DNA of 64,000 nt, taken from positions 4,093 through 68,092 of the forward strand of contig CAZEEU010000004.1 in NCBI GenBank assembly GCA_964511305.1, in the 5' to 3' direction. The notes under the pieces are model-generated. The model was not told the DNA's origin and did no database searches. It saw only the letters and a program-made list of their open reading frames with translations. How positions within the stretch are numbered: position 1 is the stretch's first letter; every line of letters starts with the position of its first letter. Shown in pieces: positions 6,329-50,645 of the stretch. Source of the stretch: an uncultured Gammaproteobacteria bacterium. GTDB lineage: Bacteria; Patescibacteriota; Microgenomatia; Levybacterales; GWA1-39-11. The translations under genes were made by a program, and so were the position numbers.

Positions 6329-6463
6329 ATATTTTTTGCAAAAAAAAACGTCGATCCTTCGACGTTTGAAAACTTTCGTTCTCCTCGGTGAGATTTCTGT
6401 CTGTCACACACTCACTGTCTTTGGAATAATTGAAATTCTAACACAAAACCATCTATATATCAA
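6329..6463 (-). promoter_or_regulatory. rplJ promoter plus ~100-nt leader containing an intrinsic-terminator hairpin (attenuator-like L10 leader)
   Basis: Minus strand TTGATA-17nt-TAGAAT (plus coords 6435-6463); perfect 7-bp hairpin AAACGUCGA-AGGA-UCGACGUUU + U9 (plus 6341-6368) ending 12 nt before the rplJ ATG. Confidence 0.45.
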
Positions 6464-20339: not shown

Positions 20340-20608
20340 TGCAGACTCAACTTTAACAAAAAAGCCTCAAAGTCGCAAGGGAAGATGGGCCTCCGATCCG
20401 CCAAAAGGCGGACCGGAGGGGATAGAAAGATGACTGTTGCCGTCACGATGCCGGCATAGCCGGCTTCCGGTTGAAAACCCGACTGGGACCCGCAAGGGTC
20501 AGTTGCCGGAGACTCGCTCCGCAGGATGGGCATTGCCCTTTAATCCCGCGGGGTTTTCCGCAGTCGTCGCAAAACAACGGCAAGACTGGGTCGTGATCCG
20601 GCGCTACA

Positions 20609-21049
20609 TCAGGCAGCATGACTTCCCTCCGGTTCAGGCTGAACCCGAAGGCGCGGAAGGTAGTGATGGCAGTTACGCGCGGGGACATAACGACCGGCGG
20701 CGACGAAATCCGAGAACTCCGCGGCCTTGCTTGATCTCCAACTGACCGCAGCCACACCTTCGACGCGAAGTCGAAGATCAGCCACGCTCAGTGAGCGGAA
20801 ATGCACGGCGTCGCGAATTGCCATGCGTGGAGTGGCAAGCCACTGGCCACGCTTCTCCTCGATGAGGAGATCGATGTCCGGATCGTCTGGACCCACCTGC
20901 ACAACCGTATTGCCAGGACCTTCATACCAGACCAGGATCTCGCCGTGAACGGCGAGAACGAGGAGAAGGTCGAAGCTCGGATCAACCGGCTTTGATATGG
21001 CAGGATCCCGAAGAATCCCAAGGATCTCTTCCATTGGAAGCTGTTCCAT
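20609..21049 (-). CDS. hypothetical protein (146 aa) with high-GC codon usage, probably of foreign origin
   Basis: SD AAGGAGG 7 nt upstream of the ATG; clean GC3-rich ORF; no family recognised. Confidence 0.5.
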   Translation of the reverse strand: MEQLPMEEILGILRDPAISKPVDPSFDLLLVLAVHGEILVWYEGPGNTVVQVGPDDPDIDLLIEEKRGQWLATPRMAIRDAVHFRSLSVADLRLRVEGVAAVSWRSSKAAEFSDFVAAGRYVPARNCHHYLPRLRVQPEPEGSHAA

Positions 21050-21225
21050 TATTGGTCCTCCTTGCGCTATACGCGCCTGTTGGGTGTCGGCGGTGCCGGG
21101 GGTTGATTCGGCGGGATGTTGATCCGCCGAGGATCTCGGATCGGCCCATCGGGCCTACGAATAGGGCCCGGCAGTTCGCCGGGCCTGGGCGTAGTGGATG
21201 GACGGGTCGGTGTCAGTGTAGGCAC

Positions 21226-21432
21226 CTACTTGTCCTCCGTGTTTGACGGGTCTTTCAGCAGTGTCCTGCGAGGAAACCCAAAGATCCTTGCCTCCTCATC
21301 CGGTGTTGGTCGAGGACCAAAGGTATGGACTTCTTCCTCTTCAGTGCGCTTGATGCGCACAGCGATGGAGTCCTCTGCCGCGAGCATTTCTGTCTGCGTA
21401 AAAGGACGTCCTATGCCAGGTTCGAAGAACAT
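21226..21432 (-). CDS. small hypothetical protein (68 aa from MFFEPGIGRP...), high-GC codon usage
   Basis: SD AGGAG 6 nt upstream of the ATG at 21432; preceded by an operator-like palindrome. Confidence 0.45.
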   Translation of the reverse strand: MFFEPGIGRPFTQTEMLAAEDSIAVRIKRTEEEEVHTFGPRPTPDEEARIFGFPRRTLLKDPSNTEDK

Positions 21433-21441
21433 AAAAACTCC

Positions 21442-21458
21442 TGTGCCATATCGGCACA
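21442..21458. promoter_or_regulatory. operator-like inverted repeat TGTGCC-N5-GGCACA overlapping the SD region of the first island gene
   Basis: Perfect 6-bp inverted repeat with a 5-nt spacer directly upstream of the ribosome-binding site. Confidence 0.35.
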
Positions 21459-21757
21459 CTAAGAATAAGAATTAAGGATCTAGAATTAAGTATTAAGCTC
21501 TTTATACTTTATTCTTTCTACTTTCTTCTTCTCAAAGTGCCAACATGGCAAATACAACAGTCATTTTCAAAGAACGCTTTTACTACGGCTTTTCAAAGCA
21601 TGCGAACAGCTTTGCGAGCCAAAGCAAATTATGGGTATTTTACTCTCTTGAAGTGGCAAAAGCCATACGGCGAAGAAAAAATACTAGAAAAAGCGTGGGC
21701 CTGCACGCAATGCATTTTGCAAAGCGATGGCAGGCGGACAAGACGGTTCTGCTTTAT

Positions 21758-46892: not shown

Positions 46893-47405
46893 ATGTCTAT
46901 AGAAGAAGCACCAAGAAGAGTTATTCCAGTCGAAGGTCAATCGTTATCTGCTACTCTCGAGATTCCGGAAGCTTTACAAGGCAAAATCCCATATCCAAAG
47001 AGTGCAAAAAACACCCGAACTGTTATCAATACGTATAGAATGAATTGGAAACGTGCGGCAGACGATCTGCGTGCGCTAAGCCAAACGCAAGAGATGGGGC
47101 CACCAATTGCATCTTTTTTTGATGTATTTCCAGAAGAAGGAATTCTTGCCGAACTAAGTACTGTTTTACCTCTTATCGGTCTTAATGATAGTACAATGGC
47201 GCGTCAGGTCAGAAGTGACCTAAAACTTGCAAGAATGGAAGGGGAAGCCACCGACCATACCTTTTGGAGATTCTCTAAAGAAGAAATGGCACAATATATG
47301 ACTGGTCTTATTGCAAGGAAAAAAGTCAATTACTATGCTAGTATGCGTAGGCATCCGGAATTCTTTACAACGCCTGAATCCTCAATTTACAACCCAGAGC
47401 AATAA
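46893..47405 (+). CDS. hypothetical protein (170 aa)
   Basis: ORF only. Confidence 0.45.
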   Translation: MSIEEAPRRVIPVEGQSLSATLEIPEALQGKIPYPKSAKNTRTVINTYRMNWKRAADDLRALSQTQEMGPPIASFFDVFPEEGILAELSTVLPLIGLNDSTMARQVRSDLKLARMEGEATDHTFWRFSKEEMAQYMTGLIARKKVNYYASMRRHPEFFTTPESSIYNPEQ

Positions 47406-47527
47406 ATAGCTTAGGATCTGCAAATTGCAGCTTTACAAGCACATATTTCTCAAAAATATATTGGTGACAAAATACTGAAGATTCCTGAAAGTCCCCCTAA
47501 AGAAGAATATTTCACCCTACTCTAAAA

Positions 47528-47556
47528 TTTTACTTTTTATATATTATAGGATATAA
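47528..47556 (+). promoter_or_regulatory. sigma70-like promoter (TTTACT-17nt-TATAAT) firing into the GC-rich leader of the RAM-domain gene
   Basis: Read from sequence; AT-rich promoter abutting the GC-rich segment. Confidence 0.4.
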
Positions 47557-48060
47557 TGATGCCCTGTGAGTTAAGCCTAGCCTTCCCCATGGGAGAATCT
47601 AGGCTGAAGTTCGCTCTCTGACAACAGAAGCCAATTTAGACCAGTCCGGTAGCAATATCGGGCCCAAAAACCCTGCAATTGCAGGAGAGGAGTTATTCGT
47701 TGAATACTGTTCGAGCCCTCGTGCTCATCAATGCCCTGGAGGGCAAGCGAAATGACCTCGCCAAAACGCTCTCGGCGTGCGATTCGCACATCGAAGGCGT
47801 TGGCTCCGTTCAGCGCATCCAGGGTCCCTTCGATTTGGCCATCGTGGTCGAACGCGAGGACGAGCTCAGGTTTGCTCAAACGATCGCTCAGATCGAAGCA
47901 AATCCGGATGCTCAAACCGTAATCGCGTGCAGGTACGTTTATGACCCTGCAGACCTCCCGGATAACTCCGGGGATTACGTGCCTGACGGTCACTAACCGG
48001 CTTCTGTTCTCGTCCTCGGGTGCGCTTGCGCGCCCGGGGACTTTCTCTAAGTTACTTCTG
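47557..48060. other. GC-rich island 2 (~0.5 kb): structured ~140-nt leader, small RAM-domain gene, GC-rich 3' hairpin
   Basis: Abrupt GC shift; CTGCAA(A)TTGCAG palindromes at 47418-47430 and 47671-47685. Confidence 0.55.
47700..47996 (+). CDS. stand-alone Lrp/AsnC-type ligand-binding (RAM) domain protein, ~98 aa, TTG start, high-GC codon usage
   Basis: VRALVLINALEGKRNDLAKTL...GPFDLAIVVEREDELRFAQTIAQIEANPDAQTVIA matches the beta-alpha-beta-beta-alpha-beta RAM/AsnC_trans_reg fold; SD GGAGAGGAG 7 nt upstream of the TTG. The antisense ORF 47577-47993 is judged spurious. Confidence 0.6.
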   Translation: MNTVRALVLINALEGKRNDLAKTLSACDSHIEGVGSVQRIQGPFDLAIVVEREDELRFAQTIAQIEANPDAQTVIACRYVYDPADLPDNSGDYVPDGH

Positions 48061-48065
48061 GAAAT

Positions 48066-49235
48066 TTATTTTAAAGCTTCTATTCCGGGGAGAGTTCCAT
48101 TCTCTATGTACTCAAGCATTGCTCCACCACCTGTAGAAATATGAGTAATCGTTTCTAGATACTCCATCTTGTCAATTGCAGCCAATGTATCACCACCACC
48201 AACTATCGACACTAGATGAGGATTTTGCGCAATTGTGTAATATAAAAATTGGGTCCCACGAGCATACTCAGGATTTTCCATATACCCTACTGGCCCATTC
48301 CAAATAAGAGTTTTTGAAGCCAAAATTGCTTTTGCATAATCTGATTGCGCTTCAGGTCCAATGTCCAAAATCATGTCGCTTGCCCCGACTTCTGAAATCT
48401 TTTTGACTACACTGTCATTTCCATCCATAGTACCTACCAATACATCTCGCGGTAACATAATTTTTGTATTCTTATCCTTTGCATGTCTCACGATCTTTTT
48501 TACCTCATCAACCATATCGCGTTCGCAAAGACTCTTGCCAACTGGGTATCCAAGTGCAAAAAGGAGAGTATTTGCAAGTCCTCCACCAAGTATTAAGTAG
48601 TCTGCTCTTTCTGTTAATTTATAAAGCAATTTCAGCTTGGTTGATACTTTAGCACCACCAATAATTGCAGCGAATGGATGATTTGGATGACGCATGGCAT
48701 GTCCTATGGTTTCTACTTCCCGCTCCATAAGAAGCCCTCCATAATGCGGTAGATATTTGGGGACCTCTGTAATTGACGCACAATCCCTATGACTTACACC
48801 AAAGGCATCATTTACATACACGTCAGCAAGAGCCGCTAATTTTTTAGCAAAATTTACATTAGCATCTTCTTCCTCCTTATAGAACCGTATATTCTCTAAG
48901 AACAGTATATCTCGAGTCGTTTGCGACTCAAAATGCTTCTTGGCACCTTCAGACTCAAAATCATCAATGACTGTTAGGTTGTAGTCTGGAAGATATGAAT
49001 GCAGACGCCTTGCAATTGGTCGTAATGCCAATTTTTCATCCCACCCCTTTGGGCGACCTAGGTGCGAGACAATAATGAGCCTGTTATCGTCCTTTAGAAG
49101 TTTTTTAATTGTCGGAAGTGCTGCACGAATTCTAGCATCATCGGTAATTTTATTGCCGCGCATACTGACGTTAAAATCTACACGAAGAAGAACCTTCTTA
49201 TTTCGGATATGCGCTTTGTCAATGTAAATAATCAT
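48066..49235 (-). CDS. pgk: phosphoglycerate kinase
   Basis: N-terminal KKVLLRVDFNV and overall PGK architecture. Confidence 0.9.
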   Translation of the reverse strand: MIIYIDKAHIRNKKVLLRVDFNVSMRGNKITDDARIRAALPTIKKLLKDDNRLIIVSHLGRPKGWDEKLALRPIARRLHSYLPDYNLTVIDDFESEGAKKHFESQTTRDILFLENIRFYKEEEDANVNFAKKLAALADVYVNDAFGVSHRDCASITEVPKYLPHYGGLLMEREVETIGHAMRHPNHPFAAIIGGAKVSTKLKLLYKLTERADYLILGGGLANTLLFALGYPVGKSLCERDMVDEVKKIVRHAKDKNTKIMLPRDVLVGTMDGNDSVVKKISEVGASDMILDIGPEAQSDYAKAILASKTLIWNGPVGYMENPEYARGTQFLYYTIAQNPHLVSIVGGGDTLAAIDKMEYLETITHISTGGGAMLEYIENGTLPGIEALK

Positions 49236-49292
49236 GATCTTTGATTAAGGATTAATTGATTAATGATCGTTAAAGCATTTAATCTTAGATCA

Positions 49293-50645
49293 TCATTCAT
49301 TAATCGAGGTCTCACTTATGTATTGTCTAACTGTGTGGGCATTACCTTTGAGGTTGAGCTTTTGTATCAACATCTCGAATTCCTCAGCCAAAGCTCCTCT
49401 TATAACATTTTTCTCATCCTCATTCATAAGCCACATTTCTTTTTTGTGAGGTCCAAATGCCTTTTTTCTTGTCTTGTATAAAAGCTGCTCATCTGTCCAT
49501 CCCTCTTCGCGCTCATTTTCAAAATTATCTCTACAATATTGGAAGAGTTTTTCACGCAAATGAGCTGGCATAGTGTCGTAAATGATATTTTGAAAACCGG
49601 TAGCTAAGTGGATTTCTACGGTACCTGCTTCGGGGAATTTATCAAATAGCTCGTTTGGCAAAGTTGATGCACCATGCTGCACTGGCCCACCCATTCCAAA
49701 TTTTTCCCTTGCAACATTCCCAATACTTCTTAATACCTCAAAATCTACTTTAACTTCTTTTAGCGACCCGTCTGGATTCGGAAGTCCTCCATGTGTAGTA
49801 CCAGTCTGAACACTCACTTTTGAAATGATCTGGGCATCTCCTACGCGCTCCATATACCCCTTCATAAAAGCCTCAAAATCCTCAACATCTGAGTTCGTAT
49901 CCCCTATGTGCCCTATTTCTCCACCAATTGTTGCCATAACACCTGCTGGCTGCATACTTCTGACAAATTTTGTAAGAAGAGCTGTCATTTCATAATTCTC
50001 CTCCTGTTGCTCATCTTTTGTTGGAAGAGATAGATCAACCAATGTTGATGCATCTATATCTATATTGTAAAAACCAGCCGCTAATGCATCTTTAATAGAA
50101 AGCTCAATCTCATCGATTTGACCCTGAGGATATTCTTTGTACTTTTTTGCATCAAATTGATAATGATCTCCTTGTAGAAATACCGGTCCTTCATATCCTT
50201 CTTTCATGGCAGCAGCTAGAATACAAACAGTAATCTCGTCTTGATTTTGAAGCGTGTACTTATGCTCGCTTCTTGAAATTTCAAATATAAAGGTTGATGC
50301 TTCATGCTCTAACGCCTTTTTAAAGACCTCTCTCGCAACATCATAAGTAATTGTTCTCATATTCATTGCAGGGACCGTAAAACCACTCACTTTTCCTTCA
50401 CCAAATGCTTTATATAGTGGGTGAATTGAGGCTGGATAGACATGAAGTATCTTCGCAAGTTTTCTTATGTATACGCGACAAAGATGCCTAACTTGGGCAT
50501 CATCTGAGAGAACCCCGGAGTAAATTAAGTAGTCAATTCCGTATTCGCGAAATTTTTGGGGATCTTTGATCTGGATATCCTCGTCAGACATTGCCACAAC
50601 GTCATTAAGATTATTGTCCAGTTCGGAAACACTCTGAAATATCAT
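49293..50645 (-). CDS. class II fructose-bisphosphate aldolase family protein (long form)
   Basis: GFTVPAMNMRT (cf. VPAFNVNN), LQGDHYQ (cf. LHLDHG), VQTGTTHGG (cf. GxxHG) metal/phosphate-binding motifs; adjacent to pgk. Confidence 0.6.
   Translation of the reverse strand: MIFQSVSELDNNLNDVVAMSDEDIQIKDPQKFREYGIDYLIYSGVLSDDAQVRHLCRVYIRKLAKILHVYPASIHPLYKAFGEGKVSGFTVPAMNMRTITYDVAREVFKKALEHEASTFIFEISRSEHKYTLQNQDEITVCILAAAMKEGYEGPVFLQGDHYQFDAKKYKEYPQGQIDEIELSIKDALAAGFYNIDIDASTLVDLSLPTKDEQQEENYEMTALLTKFVRSMQPAGVMATIGGEIGHIGDTNSDVEDFEAFMKGYMERVGDAQIISKVSVQTGTTHGGLPNPDGSLKEVKVDFEVLRSIGNVAREKFGMGGPVQHGASTLPNELFDKFPEAGTVEIHLATGFQNIIYDTMPAHLREKLFQYCRDNFENEREEGWTDEQLLYKTRKKAFGPHKKEMWLMNEDEKNVIRGALAEEFEMLIQKLNLKGNAHTVRQYISETSINE

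What the first reader, a model, noticed from the sequence alone, without database searches (positions are those of the whole stretch)
47418..48060. Second GC-rich cassette: promoter, structured leader and a stand-alone RAM (Lrp/AsnC ligand-binding) domain gene, bracketed by CTGCAATTGCAG palindromes
An AT-rich sigma70-like promoter (TTTACT-17-TATAAT, 47528-47556) fires straight into a ~140-nt GC-rich leader with long imperfect hairpins (AGCCUAG...CUAGGCU around CCCAUGGG). That leader is followed by SD GGAGAGGAG and a TTG-initiated 98-aa RAM-domain protein in high-GC codons, then a GC hairpin. The same palindrome CTGCAA(A)TTGCAG occurs at 47418-47430 and again overlapping the SD at 47671-47685. 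It looks like paired operators or a recombination footprint. A stand-alone amino-acid-sensing RAM domain without a DNA-binding domain under such an elaborate leader is unusual. Its composition matches island 1, suggesting the same foreign source.
Basis: partly seen in the sequence, partly recalled or inferred. Interest (0 to 1): 0.65.

Follow-up and report, generated by a model that had tools for sequence, protein, structure and literature searches.

The report
GC-rich end-paired mRNA for RAM protein
This is a long-resident small gene for a fast-evolving amino-acid-sensor-type (RAM) protein in an AT-rich candidate-phylum bacterium, on an unusually GC-rich mRNA whose two ends pair; it is not a recently imported cassette bracketed by palindromes.

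Summary
The described features exist. They are a sigma70-like promoter (47529-47557), a ~136-nt structured leader, SD plus TTG, a 98-aa ORF (47700-47996) and a GC hairpin (48012-48041). GC is 55% in a ~37% GC Levyibacteriota (CPR) genome.

The ORF alone hits no Pfam model and has no homologue outside its own species. Syntenic orthologues in relatives hit PF01037. A family profile matches the window ORF (E 6.5e-8), and an AlphaFold model (pLDDT 86) superposes on solved stand-alone RAM proteins. So the RAM reading holds.

The "foreign cassette bracketed by palindromes" reading does not:
- The unit sits in the same slot (PIG-L gene to pgk) in 15 distinct related loci, always GC-rich (GC3 0.65-0.85).
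- Palindrome 1 lies inside a decayed remnant of the PIG-L gene.
- Palindrome 2 is an RNA hairpin next to the SD that covaries.
- Island 1 shares no sequence or architecture with it.

New here is a covariation-supported mRNA scaffold: a 5'-terminal hairpin, a 10-bp helix joining the 5'UTR (47623-47632) to the first bases after the stop codon (47999-48008), then the terminator. The closest analogue is B. subtilis hbs mRNA. The function (mRNA stabilisation or translation coupling) is inferred. The persistent GC richness is unexplained.

The parts
47409..47525 (+). Decayed remnant of the 3' end of a PIG-L/LmbE-family deacetylase gene that is intact in relatives. It is not part of the cassette but explains palindrome 1.
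   Evidence: It aligns base for base with the last ~110 nt of the 218-221-aa PIG-L genes of L003, L004 and L005, including the shared stop ...TTCACCCTACTCTAA. The L003 gene hits PF02585 at E 3e-28. A translation of 47409-47522 in the frame of that shared stop codon contains a stop codon.
47418..47430 (.). Palindrome 1, CTGCAAATTGCAG: a chance palindrome inside the gene remnant.
   Evidence: Confirmed. The homologous stretch reads CCCGCGTTGCAG in L003 and CAACGAATTGGAG in L004, neither of which is palindromic.
47529..47557 (+). Sigma70-type promoter: -35 TTTACT, 17-nt spacer, -10 TATAAT. The predicted transcription start is about 47564-47566.
   Evidence: Found. A -35/17 nt/TATAAT arrangement sits at the same position in L003, L007, L010, L117-L119, L122 and L123.
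47566..47614 (+). H1, a ~50-nt hairpin starting within about 0-3 nt of the predicted 5' end of the RNA (a 5'-terminal stem-loop).
   Evidence: It appears in the MFE structure of all four full transcripts. In the 10-sequence consensus, 11 of its 19 pairs show changes on both sides (helices 1 and 2).
47623..47632 (+). 5' strand of the long-range helix (LR), AACAGAAGCC.
   Evidence: It pairs with 47999-48008 (I9). The anchored Watson-Crick helix is reached in 3 of 5000 shuffles. Cognate against permuted partners across 12 lineages: 0 of 100000 permutations reach the observed mean.
47644..47663 (+). H3, a conserved leader hairpin (GUCCGG...CGGGC).
   Evidence: In the RNAalifold consensus of 10 sequences, 4 of its 8 pairs show changes on both sides (helix 4). 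In the window's own MFE this stretch pairs elsewhere, so H3 rests on the consensus.
47672..47685 (+). SD-adjacent RNA hairpin CCUGC-AAUU-GCAGG.
   Evidence: Confirmed. The same position holds UCCCGC-CCC-GCGGGA in L007 and L010 and equivalent stems in L117-L123, with compensatory UA to CG changes (helix 5).
47684..47692 (+). Shine-Dalgarno GGAGAGGAG, 7 nt upstream of the TTG start.
   Evidence: Read directly from the sequence. (A/G)GGAG is conserved at this place in most relatives; L010 has AAGAGG.
47700..47996 (+). Gene for a 98-aa divergent stand-alone RAM (Lrp/AsnC ligand-binding) domain protein. It starts with TTG, ends with TAA at 47994-47996, and has a 17-residue acidic C-terminal tail predicted with low confidence.
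   Evidence: - GC by codon position is 0.66/0.39/0.65.
- It is 32% identical to the syntenic L003 ORF, E 4e-10.
- hhalign against the RAM family alignment A6 gives probability 94.6%, E 6.5e-8.
- hmmsearch gives E 4.7e-8.
- The profile A3 hits solved stand-alone RAM proteins 2zbc, 2cvi, 2e1a and 2djw.
- The AF2 model has pLDDT 86 and a beta-alpha-beta-beta-alpha-beta fold.
- Foldseek finds TTHA0845, FFRP-DM1 and STS042 at rmsd 1.1-1.3 A.
47999..48008 (+). 3' strand of the long-range helix (LR), GGCUUCUGUU. It starts 2 nt after the stop codon and ends 3 nt before the terminator stem.
48012..48041 (+). Terminator hairpin with a 13-bp stem (10 GC pairs), followed by UUUCUCU.
   Evidence: Found. 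It is conserved in all RAM-type relatives, with 98% of cells paired and some compensatory changes (helix 6).

Best explanation
The region is a resident, vertically inherited monocistronic transcription unit of a Candidatus Levyibacteriota (CPR/Patescibacteria) genome.

A conserved sigma70-type promoter drives a ~480-nt GC-rich mRNA. This mRNA encodes a fast-diverging stand-alone RAM (Lrp/AsnC ligand-binding) domain protein, presumably a small-molecule or amino-acid sensor that works through oligomerisation with itself or with partner proteins.

The mRNA carries a conserved scaffold:
- a long hairpin (H1) at the very 5' end;
- a 10-bp long-range helix (LR) that pairs the 5'UTR with the bases immediately after the stop codon, so the SD and the whole ORF are enclosed in one closed domain;
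- a strong terminator hairpin directly 3' of the LR.

The most likely role of the scaffold is to make a compact, end-protected, nuclease-resistant mRNA whose stability or translation is coupled to ribosome passage. A terminating ribosome must melt the LR. This would resemble the 5'/3'-UTR interaction of B. subtilis hbs mRNA.

Shown here: the gene, its family, its synteny, and the conservation and covariation of the structure. Inferred: ligand sensing by the protein, and the stabilising or translation-coupling role of the RNA structure. The reason the unit stays GC-rich is not explained.
For: Coding and family:
- Codon-position GC periodicity.
- Syntenic orthologues hit PF01037 at 35.0, 32.4 and 24.2 bits.
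- Window ORF against the L003 ORF gives E 4e-10.
- hhalign gives E 6.5e-8 and hmmsearch E 4.7e-8.
- The profile hits solved stand-alone RAM proteins in the PDB at E 3.5e-10.
- The AF2 model has pLDDT 86, and Foldseek top hits are RAM domains, including stand-alone ones.

Residence:
- The L11-L1-(orf)-PIG-L-[GC-rich unit]-pgk synteny holds in L003-L007, L009, L010 and L013 and in L117-L124.
- ORF GC3 is 0.65-0.85 while flanks are 34-43% GC.
- Identical copies occur in two other metagenomes.

RNA structure:
- Full-transcript z-scores are -7.0, -5.5, -5.4 and -8.0 in four lineages.
- The same H1, LR, SD-hairpin and terminator layout appears in four independent MFE folds.
- On 10 sequences, 47 consensus pairs are 92.3% paired. 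Nineteen pairs have changes on both sides, against 6.9 +/- 2.0 in shuffles (0 of 500). Slid controls give 28-51% paired.
- LR partners covary. Cognate mean duplex energy is -20.2 kcal/mol against -13.0 +/- 1.1 for permuted partners (0 of 100000). The cognate partner ranks first in 9 of 12 lineages.
- The LR persists in relatives whose unit carries different ORFs: L004, L005, L006 and L013 have 9-bp Watson-Crick helices, and L009 has 10 bp only when G.U is allowed.
- G.U pairs occur in several LR helices; L123 has 4 of 17.

Analogue: a 14-bp 5'/3'-UTR interaction modulates RNase Y cleavage in hbs mRNA (PMC5737220).
Against: - There are no expression or probing data. The transcription start, the termination point and the folding in vivo are all predictions.
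- The window ORF alone fails Pfam and NCBIfam. It has no homologue outside its own species in 5.8 billion or 1.84 billion proteins. It may therefore be under relaxed constraint in this lineage.
- ORF-only folding is unremarkable in L007 and L010 (z +0.25 and -0.57). Selection for structure therefore does not obviously explain GC-rich codons.
- Comparing LR energies on the sense and antisense strands does not decide the strand.
- A DNA-level inverted repeat would show the same complementarity.
- The U-tract after the terminator hairpin is short.
- Covariation rests on about 10-12 related lineages of one clade.
Confidence: 0.6

Rival explanations
1. One reading: a recently acquired foreign gene cassette from the same GC-rich donor as island 1, inserted between palindromic sites that are operators or a recombination footprint.
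For: - GC is 55% against ~37%.
- Codon usage is atypical for the host: CAI-like 0.44 against a host mean of 0.685 and minimum of 0.62.
- The nearest outgroup of the protein family lies in higher-GC Chloroflexota/Dehalococcoidia, so an ancient transfer into the clade's ancestor is plausible.
- The adjacent PIG-L gene is deleted in this genome.
Against: - The unit sits in the same slot with homologous promoter, leader and terminator in 15 distinct related loci, whose pgk is down to 63% identical.
- No integrase or transposase, no direct repeats and no second copy were found.
- Palindrome 1 is pseudogene sequence and palindrome 2 is a covarying RNA stem.
- There is no similarity to island 1, and island 1 lacks the LR.
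Confidence: 0.06
2. The leader is a cis-regulatory sensor: a new riboswitch, or a binding site for the RAM protein itself or another protein. It would switch translation or termination in response to a metabolite, and the long-range helix would be part of the switch.
For: - The ~136-170-nt leader has three covarying hairpins, one abutting the SD.
- The gene product is a predicted amino-acid-binding domain, a typical setting for feedback control.
- In relatives with short leaders, the LR 5' strand lies 3-24 nt from the start codon. Its extension can pair with the SD, as in L005, L009 and L013.
Against: - No Rfam family matches even at E <= 1-10.
- No mutually exclusive alternative structure or terminator/antiterminator pair was identified.
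- Relatives of the protein in other phyla show no detectable copy of this leader (nhmmer).
- The H1, LR and terminator layout (though not a homologous H1) also encloses unrelated small ORFs. That argues for a gene-independent role.
Confidence: 0.2
3. The two LR strands are DNA-level inverted repeats used for site-specific inversion (phase variation) or for exchange of the ORF segment between conserved flanks. This would explain why the coding content between them differs among species.
For: - 9-16-bp inverted repeats flank the ORF in every lineage.
- The content between them varies: a RAM gene, or 2-4 other small ORFs.
- The window and L003 ORFs are only 32% identical while their leader is 80% and their terminator region 92% identical.
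- The sense/antisense energy test is not decisive.
Against: - Repeat sequences differ between lineages and covary in pairs, unlike recombinase core sites.
- Several helices depend on G.U pairs, which are mismatches in DNA. L123 has 4 of 17; L007, L117 and L122 have 2 of 16 each.
- All 17 assemblies show the ORF in the sense orientation relative to the promoter.
- No invertase gene is nearby.
- Contig ends of L001 and L002 do not fall at the repeats.
Confidence: 0.07
4. A structured non-coding RNA whose ORF is an accident of GC-rich sequence.
For: - The fold z-score is very low on both strands.
- Long ORFs occur on both strands.
- The window ORF alone has no family hit.
- GC-rich intergenic stretches in AT-rich genomes are the classic signature of structured RNAs (PMC8723152).
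Against: - An ORF of the same length, position and beta-alpha-beta-beta-alpha-beta pattern is kept in all RAM-type relatives and belongs to PF01037.
- Codon-position GC periodicity is present.
- An SD at the correct spacing is conserved.
Confidence: 0.02

Closest known systems
Stand-alone RAM-domain proteins (SARD) of the Lrp/AsnC (feast/famine) family, e.g. P. horikoshii FFRP-DM1 (2e1a), S. tokodaii STS042 (2zbc), T. thermophilus TTHA0845 (2djw)
   Same: - It is a ~75-98-aa single beta-alpha-beta-beta-alpha-beta domain without an HTH.
- Profile similarity is significant.
- The predicted structure superposes at rmsd 1.1-1.3 A, with TM up to 0.88 relative to the target.
- Known members bind amino acids and switch oligomeric state, and DM1 forms hetero-octamers with full-length FL11 (PMC2995911).
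   Different: - The sequence is very divergent, with no direct Pfam hit.
- Family motifs such as LIETEVGK, GPYDVIA and RTTTCL are altered.
- It has an extra acidic C-terminal tail predicted with low confidence.
- No full-length Lrp/AsnC partner is found in the 64-kb window.
- Ligand and oligomeric state are unknown.
B. subtilis hbs mRNA: structured 5'UTR plus a 14-bp 5'/3'-UTR interaction that modulates RNase Y cleavage (PMC5737220)
   Same: - It is a small ORF of about 90-100 codons on a short monocistronic mRNA with a highly structured leader.
- A 10-16-bp helix joins the 5'UTR to the 3'UTR just upstream of the terminator.
   Different: - There is no sequence homology, and the organism and gene differ.
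- Here the helix starts 2 nt after the stop codon.
- The whole mRNA, coding part included, is GC-rich against an AT-rich genome.
- An effect on RNases is untested.
S. aureus icaR mRNA 5'-3' UTR pairing (PMC3868564)
   Same: A long-range pairing of 3'UTR to 5'UTR within one bacterial mRNA.
   Different: - In icaR the 3'UTR pairs with the Shine-Dalgarno region, blocks translation and creates an RNase III site.
- In the window the LR 5' strand ends 67 nt upstream of the start codon and leaves the SD free.
- Only the short-leader relatives L005, L009 and L013 place it next to the SD.
5'-terminal stem-loop mRNA stabilisers (E. coli ompA; B. subtilis aprE and ermC leaders). Cited from my own knowledge, not checked in the paper library.
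   Same: A hairpin beginning within a few nucleotides of the predicted 5' end (H1, 47566-47614) is conserved with covariation.
   Different: The transcription start is only predicted from the -10 box. The stabilising effect is untested.

Membership tests
Stand-alone RAM domain proteins (Lrp/AsnC ligand-binding domain, PF01037) | Significant profile-level sequence homology to RAM domains | tested here: met
   - hhalign of the window ORF against a 20-sequence RAM alignment that excludes the window and L003: probability 94.6%, E 6.5e-8.
- hmmsearch of that profile against all window ORFs: E 4.7e-8, the only hit.
- The profile of the four syntenic orthologues hits the PDB RAM proteins 2zbc, 2cyy, 2cvi, 2e1a and 2djw at E 3.5e-10 to 2e-6.
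- Caveat: a direct Pfam-A or NCBIfam scan of the window ORF alone gives nothing at E <= 1. Orthologues L007 and L010 pass the PF01037 gathering score, while L003 is just below it at 24.2 against 25.
Stand-alone RAM domain proteins (Lrp/AsnC ligand-binding domain, PF01037) | Beta-alpha-beta-beta-alpha-beta (ferredoxin-like) RAM fold | tested here: met
   - The AF2 model built with a 51-sequence alignment has pLDDT 86 and pTM 0.73, with elements E3-12, H17-25, E34-39, E46-52, H55-66 and E71-81.
- The Foldseek PDB top 16 hits are all Lrp/AsnC RAM domains, including the stand-alone TTHA0845, DM1 and STS042.
- The alignment used consisted of RAM homologues, which favours this fold.
- A single-sequence model gave the same topology at low confidence.
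Stand-alone RAM domain proteins (Lrp/AsnC ligand-binding domain, PF01037) | No N-terminal helix-turn-helix DNA-binding domain | tested here: met
   The ORF is 98 aa. The reading frame is closed upstream within the leader, since the ORF list gives 47679 as the earliest possible start. Orthologues are 82-89 aa.
Stand-alone RAM domain proteins (Lrp/AsnC ligand-binding domain, PF01037) | Binds amino acids or metabolites at the dimer interface and changes oligomeric state | not testable with these tools
   This needs purified protein (ITC, SEC-MALS). The property is known for DM1, STS042 and others (PMC2995911).
Bacterial mRNAs with a functional 5'UTR-3'UTR interaction (hbs type) | Long-range complementarity between the 5'UTR and the 3'UTR of the same mRNA | tested here: met
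   A 10-bp Watson-Crick helix joins 47623-47632 to 47999-48008. It extends to 16 pairs with an internal loop.
Bacterial mRNAs with a functional 5'UTR-3'UTR interaction (hbs type) | The interaction is evolutionarily maintained (covariation) | tested here: met
   Cognate against permuted partners in 12 lineages: 0 of 100000 permutations reach the observed mean. Compensatory differences include AACAGAAGCC/GGCUUCUGUU against AUCAGAUCC/GGAUCUGAU and CAGGUCACA/UGUGACCUG.
Bacterial mRNAs with a functional 5'UTR-3'UTR interaction (hbs type) | The interaction changes RNase cleavage, mRNA half-life or translation | not testable with these tools
   This needs mutagenesis and RNA decay assays.
icaR-type 3'UTR anti-SD pairing | The 3'UTR strand pairs with the Shine-Dalgarno region | tested here: not met
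   In the window the LR 5' strand ends 67 nt before the start codon, and the SD (47684-47692) is outside the helix. So the unit is not filed under this type.
Known cis-regulatory or structured RNA families (Rfam 15) | Covariance-model match | tested here: not met
   There is no hit at gathering score in the window or in 10 relatives. At E <= 10 only chance-level hits appear: sX11 at 18 bits and RNase_MRP at 12 bits. Nothing is found in the L118, L121 and L122 leaders.
Mobile gene cassette or genomic island (integron cassette, MITE/IS cargo, recent HGT island) | Variable presence at the site, mobility genes or target-site and terminal repeats, or extra copies elsewhere | tested here: not met
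   - The position is conserved in 15 distinct related loci.
- There are no direct repeats or second copies.
- No copy occurs in the viral or genome collections outside the clade.
- The flanking genes are L1, PIG-L and pgk.
NapD (the name given by JGI to the identical protein) | Match to the NapD family and a nap operon context | tested here: not met
   There is no PF03927 hit. NapD is only Foldseek rank 50, with rmsd 9.7. No nap genes are nearby. The JGI name appears.

The most novel reading that the evidence does not exclude
The layout of 5'-terminal hairpin, 5'UTR:3'UTR helix and terminator is a lineage-wide, gene-independent 'RNA capsule'. In this Levyibacteriota slot it hosts interchangeable small GC-rich ORFs: RAM proteins, tiny membrane peptides and zinc-ribbon peptides. 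On this reading the extreme, persistent GC richness (GC3 up to 0.85 in 35-38% GC genomes) is maintained by selection on the RNA itself. It would give a long-lived or dormant, end-paired mRNA, or a dual-function RNA, suited to slow-growing ultra-small cells. It would not be a trace of foreign origin.
Probability: 0.2. Interest if true: 0.7.

Novelty: new variant of a known kind. Interest (0 to 1): 0.45.

Why it matters
- The result turns an apparent "foreign island" into a conserved, clade-wide feature. It also gives a clean, covariation-backed example of 5'UTR-3'UTR end-pairing in a bacterial mRNA from an uncultivated phylum, where post-transcriptional control is essentially unstudied.
- It raises a concrete open question: how can a small gene keep GC3 at 0.65-0.85 over long divergence in a ~37% GC genome? 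Amelioration theory predicts decay, so persistence points to selection or a local bias that could be tested.
- It corrects a public mis-annotation (NapD).
- It shows that the window protein is a RAM domain that standard HMM libraries miss.

Tried and rejected
1. Known structured RNA. A GAAAGUCC(CC)GG / ACAGAAGCCGGUUA pair on the minus strand looked like RNase P helix P4. However, the two strands are only ~30 nt apart around the terminator hairpin, and the RNase P clan scored 12 bits. ARAGORN found no tmRNA. Rejected.
2. Direct family assignment of the window ORF failed in every search:
   - Pfam and NCBIfam gave nothing.
   - phmmer against the PDB gave only chance tau hits.
   - The 5.8-billion and 1.84-billion protein searches returned only the same protein, plus one low-complexity false positive, P0002.
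3. Relatives of the ORF in the viral and GTDB genome collections: none.
4. The search for related loci with the four-sequence alignment failed because no stretch was conserved enough.
5. I first read the 100% identity of the unit in L001, against 94.8% overall, as ultra-conservation. The mismatch map shows a recombination mosaic, with only 5 differences before 48732, so it is uninformative.
6. RNAduplex or longest-helix tests using the whole 5'UTR with G.U allowed did not separate cognate from non-cognate partners. Only windows anchored on the conserved motif and on the terminator did.
7. Comparing LR energies on the sense and antisense strands to decide RNA against DNA was inconclusive.
8. 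An nhmmer search with the leader profile found no other copy in the window or in 117 loci.
9. A shared architecture with island 1 was not found: there is no LR there and no sequence similarity.
Full report
**Setting.** The window is ~37% GC. Its genes (NusG, L11, L1, pgk, fba, mreC/D, PBP2) and the closest genome hits place it in Candidatus Levyibacteriota, in the CPR/Patescibacteria. Two stretches stand out in composition: 20.4-21.4 kb at ~60% GC, and the finding at 47.56-48.05 kb at 55% GC.

**Observation.** All the listed elements are present.
- TTTACT-17-TATAAT lies at 47529-47557.
- An imperfect leader hairpin is present.
- SD GGAGAGGAG is followed 7 nt later by TTG at 47700, opening a 98-codon ORF that ends at 47996.
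- A 13-bp GC hairpin at 48012-48041 is followed by UUUCUCU.
- The palindromes are at 47418-47430 and 47673-47684.
- The predicted transcript folds far better than dinucleotide shuffles, z = -6.4 to -7.0.
- Two independent JGI metagenome contigs (L001, L002) carry the identical unit joined to pgk. The junction is therefore real.

**Is the ORF a gene, and is it a RAM domain?** Taken alone it fails every direct test.
- There is no Pfam or NCBIfam match at E <= 1.
- There is no homologue outside its own species in 5.8 billion or 1.84 billion proteins. The one extra hit is a low-complexity repeat protein.
- JGI calls the identical protein "NapD".

Codon-position GC (0.66/0.39/0.65) nevertheless looks coding.

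The decisive evidence came from synteny. A scan for pgk relatives returned 34 loci. In the closest ones the space after pgk's stop codon is also GC-rich. L003 (pgk 93% identical) has the same promoter, a leader 80% identical, the same SD and a terminator region 92% identical. Its ORF is 82 aa and only 32% identical to the window's (BLASTP E 4e-10).

The ORFs at this position in L007, L010 and L003 hit PF01037 (Lrp/AsnC ligand-binding domain) at 35.0, 32.4 and 24.2 bits, against a cutoff of 25. Further support:
- A profile of the four orthologues hits solved stand-alone RAM proteins (2zbc, 2cvi, 2e1a, 2djw) at E 3.5e-10 to 2e-6.
- hhalign of the window ORF alone, against a 20-member family alignment that excludes it, gives probability 94.6% and E 6.5e-8. 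hmmsearch gives E 4.7e-8.
- An AlphaFold model with a 51-sequence alignment reaches pLDDT 86 with a beta-alpha-beta-beta-alpha-beta fold and a low-confidence (probably disordered) acidic tail.

The protein is a highly divergent member that HMM libraries miss.

**Foreign cassette bracketed by palindromes?** No.

The unit is resident. Profile hits P0003-P0012 led to eight more contigs, L117-L124. All show L11/L1 - PIG-L - [GC-rich RAM unit] - pgk (or gdh-pgk). ORF GC3 is 0.69-0.85 while flanks are 34-43% GC. Together with L003-L007, L009, L010 and L013, the slot is occupied in 15 distinct related loci, or 16 lineages with the window.

Relatives of the protein outside the clade (80 loci) sit in GC-matched genomes of 45-70% GC. 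The next-best protein hits are Dehalococcoidia/Chloroflexota. An ancient transfer into the clade's ancestor is therefore possible. A recent one is not.

Palindrome 1 lies in a ~110-nt remnant of the 3' end of the PIG-L-family gene, which is intact in L003, L004 and L005. The homologous bases there are not palindromic. Translating 47409-47522 in the frame of the shared stop codon hits an internal stop codon.

Palindrome 2 is the stem of an RNA hairpin abutting the SD. Relatives have a different but equally complementary stem at the same place, UCCCGC/GCGGGA.

Island 1 shares no sequence with the finding. Its 146-aa ORF is another species-restricted ORFan. It is confirmed next to mreC in an independent sample. 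It has no long-range helix. "Same donor" has no support.

**The RNA scaffold.** Full predicted transcripts of four lineages fold with z = -7.0, -5.5, -5.4 and -8.0. The ORFs alone give -4.3, -2.8, +0.25 and -0.57. Most of the signal therefore lies in the UTRs and their interaction.

The four independent MFE folds share five elements:
- a ~50-nt hairpin, H1, starting at (C/U)UGUGA within a few nt of the predicted 5' end;
- a long-range helix (LR) between a conserved ACA-N-CAG motif in the 5'UTR and the bases just after the stop codon;
- a GUCCGG hairpin (H3);
- the SD-adjacent hairpin;
- the terminator.

The window LR is AACAGAAGCC/GGCUUCUGUU (47623-47632 / 47999-48008). Other versions include:
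- L007: AUCAGAUCC/GGAUCUGAU;
- L010: AACAGA-U-AAGAGCUGG / CUAGCUCUU-U-UCUGUU;
- L004: CAGGUCACA/UGUGACCUG;
- L005: ACUGGUCAG/CUGACCAGU.

Using 24-nt windows anchored on the motif and on the terminator, cognate Watson-Crick helices of 9-10 bp occur in 7 of 9 units (each reached in 0 to 16 of 5000 shuffles). Non-cognate pairs average 5 bp.

Across 12 lineages the mean cognate duplex energy is -20.2 kcal/mol, against -13.0 +/- 1.1 for permuted partners (0 of 100000). The cognate partner ranks first in 9 of 12.

On a 10-sequence alignment of leader plus 3'UTR, RNAalifold recovers H1, the LR core, H3, the SD hairpin and the terminator. Of 47 pairs, 92.3% of cells are paired. Nineteen pairs show changes on both sides, against 6.9 +/- 2.0 in shuffles (0 of 500). 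Sliding the partners drops pairing to 28-51%.

The LR is also present where the unit carries other small ORFs, as in L004, L005, L006, L009 and L013. It is therefore not tied to the RAM gene.

No Rfam family matches any version.

**How it probably works (inference).** H1 at the 5' end, the terminator at the 3' end and the LR bringing both together enclose the SD and ORF in one closed, GC-rich domain. The LR 3' strand always lies within about 0-9 nt of the stop codon or overlaps it, so a terminating ribosome must melt it.

The closest experimentally studied case is B. subtilis hbs mRNA. There a structured leader and a 14-bp 5'/3'-UTR interaction modulate RNase Y access and couple stability to translation (PMC5737220). 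The icaR type, in which the 3'UTR masks the SD, does not fit the window, where the SD is free (PMC3868564).

By analogy with DM1, STS042 and TTHA0845, the protein should bind amino acids or metabolites and act through oligomerisation (PMC2995911). No full-length Lrp partner is present in this window.

**What remains unexplained.** It is not clear why the whole unit stays GC-rich and uses codons that are rare for the host (CAI-like 0.44 against 0.685) across lineages whose pgk has diverged to 63-80% identity. Structure inside the ORF is not generally exceptional. It is also unclear why the window/L003 branch of the protein diverged so fast.

**Verdict.** It is wrong on the palindrome bracket, the recent foreign origin and the shared donor. 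The unit is a new, divergent member of a known protein family on an mRNA that is a new variant of a known kind of 5'/3'-UTR-paired transcript. Interest is moderate.

Noticed in passing
window 20380-21460, minus strand: Island 1 is a ~1.1-kb, 60% GC unit upstream of mreC on the same strand. It carries a 68-77-aa ORF (start 21432 or 21459) and a 146-aa ORF (20609-21049). A possible CxxC...CxxC zinc-ribbon ORF overlaps the end of the 146-aa ORF. A strong hairpin, CCUCCGGUCCGCC-UUUU-GGCGGAUCGGAGG, ends the unit near 20385-20419. The 146-aa protein has no homologue except a 99% identical copy, found in the same context in an independent run (L125). It has no long-range 5'/3' helix and no similarity to the finding.
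   Followed up: partly
L004, L005, L006, L009, L013 (region between the PIG-L gene or L1 and pgk): In these relatives the same slot, with a promoter, a 5' hairpin, an LR and a terminator, holds other GC-rich small ORFs instead of, or besides, the RAM gene. These include an 85-aa RAM-like protein plus a 70-aa membrane peptide (L005, L006). L009 has 45-aa and 81-aa membrane peptides plus a 75-aa Cys-rich peptide, and L013 holds about four ORFs over 1.2 kb. The gene content of the unit turns over while the RNA layout stays.
   Followed up: partly
window 48732-49491 against L001: L001 differs from the window at only 5 positions between 47527 and 48731, but at ~13% of positions from 48732 onward, inside pgk. 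This is a sharp recombination breakpoint between strains. L002 likewise stops matching after 48864.
   Followed up: no
window 47406-47525 and 46893-47405: This genome has lost nearly all of the PIG-L/LmbE-family deacetylase gene that lies between the conserved 170-aa ORF and the RAM unit in L003, and between L1 and the unit in others. Only the last ~110 nt remain. The deletion junction is supported only by the window's own assembly, because L001 starts at 47527.
   Followed up: partly
window 6334-6442, minus strand: An Rfam L10_leader (RF00557) match sits just at the gathering score: 44.7 bits against 44.
   Followed up: no
P0001 (JGI); P0006 and P0010 (Logan): Public annotations are off. The identical protein is named NapD by JGI and is called from an internal GTG (91 aa). 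In two relatives the gene call runs upstream through the GC-rich leader, giving 134-138 aa, because that frame is open.
   Followed up: yes
L004 5183-5395 (-), L117 ~2221-2436, L121 ~1500-1848: A conserved ~70-aa CxxC peptide of normal AT-rich composition (motif HHWIIEE..GPTS.G.C..CG...F.NWL) lies next to the GC-rich unit in several relatives. It is absent from the window.
   Followed up: no
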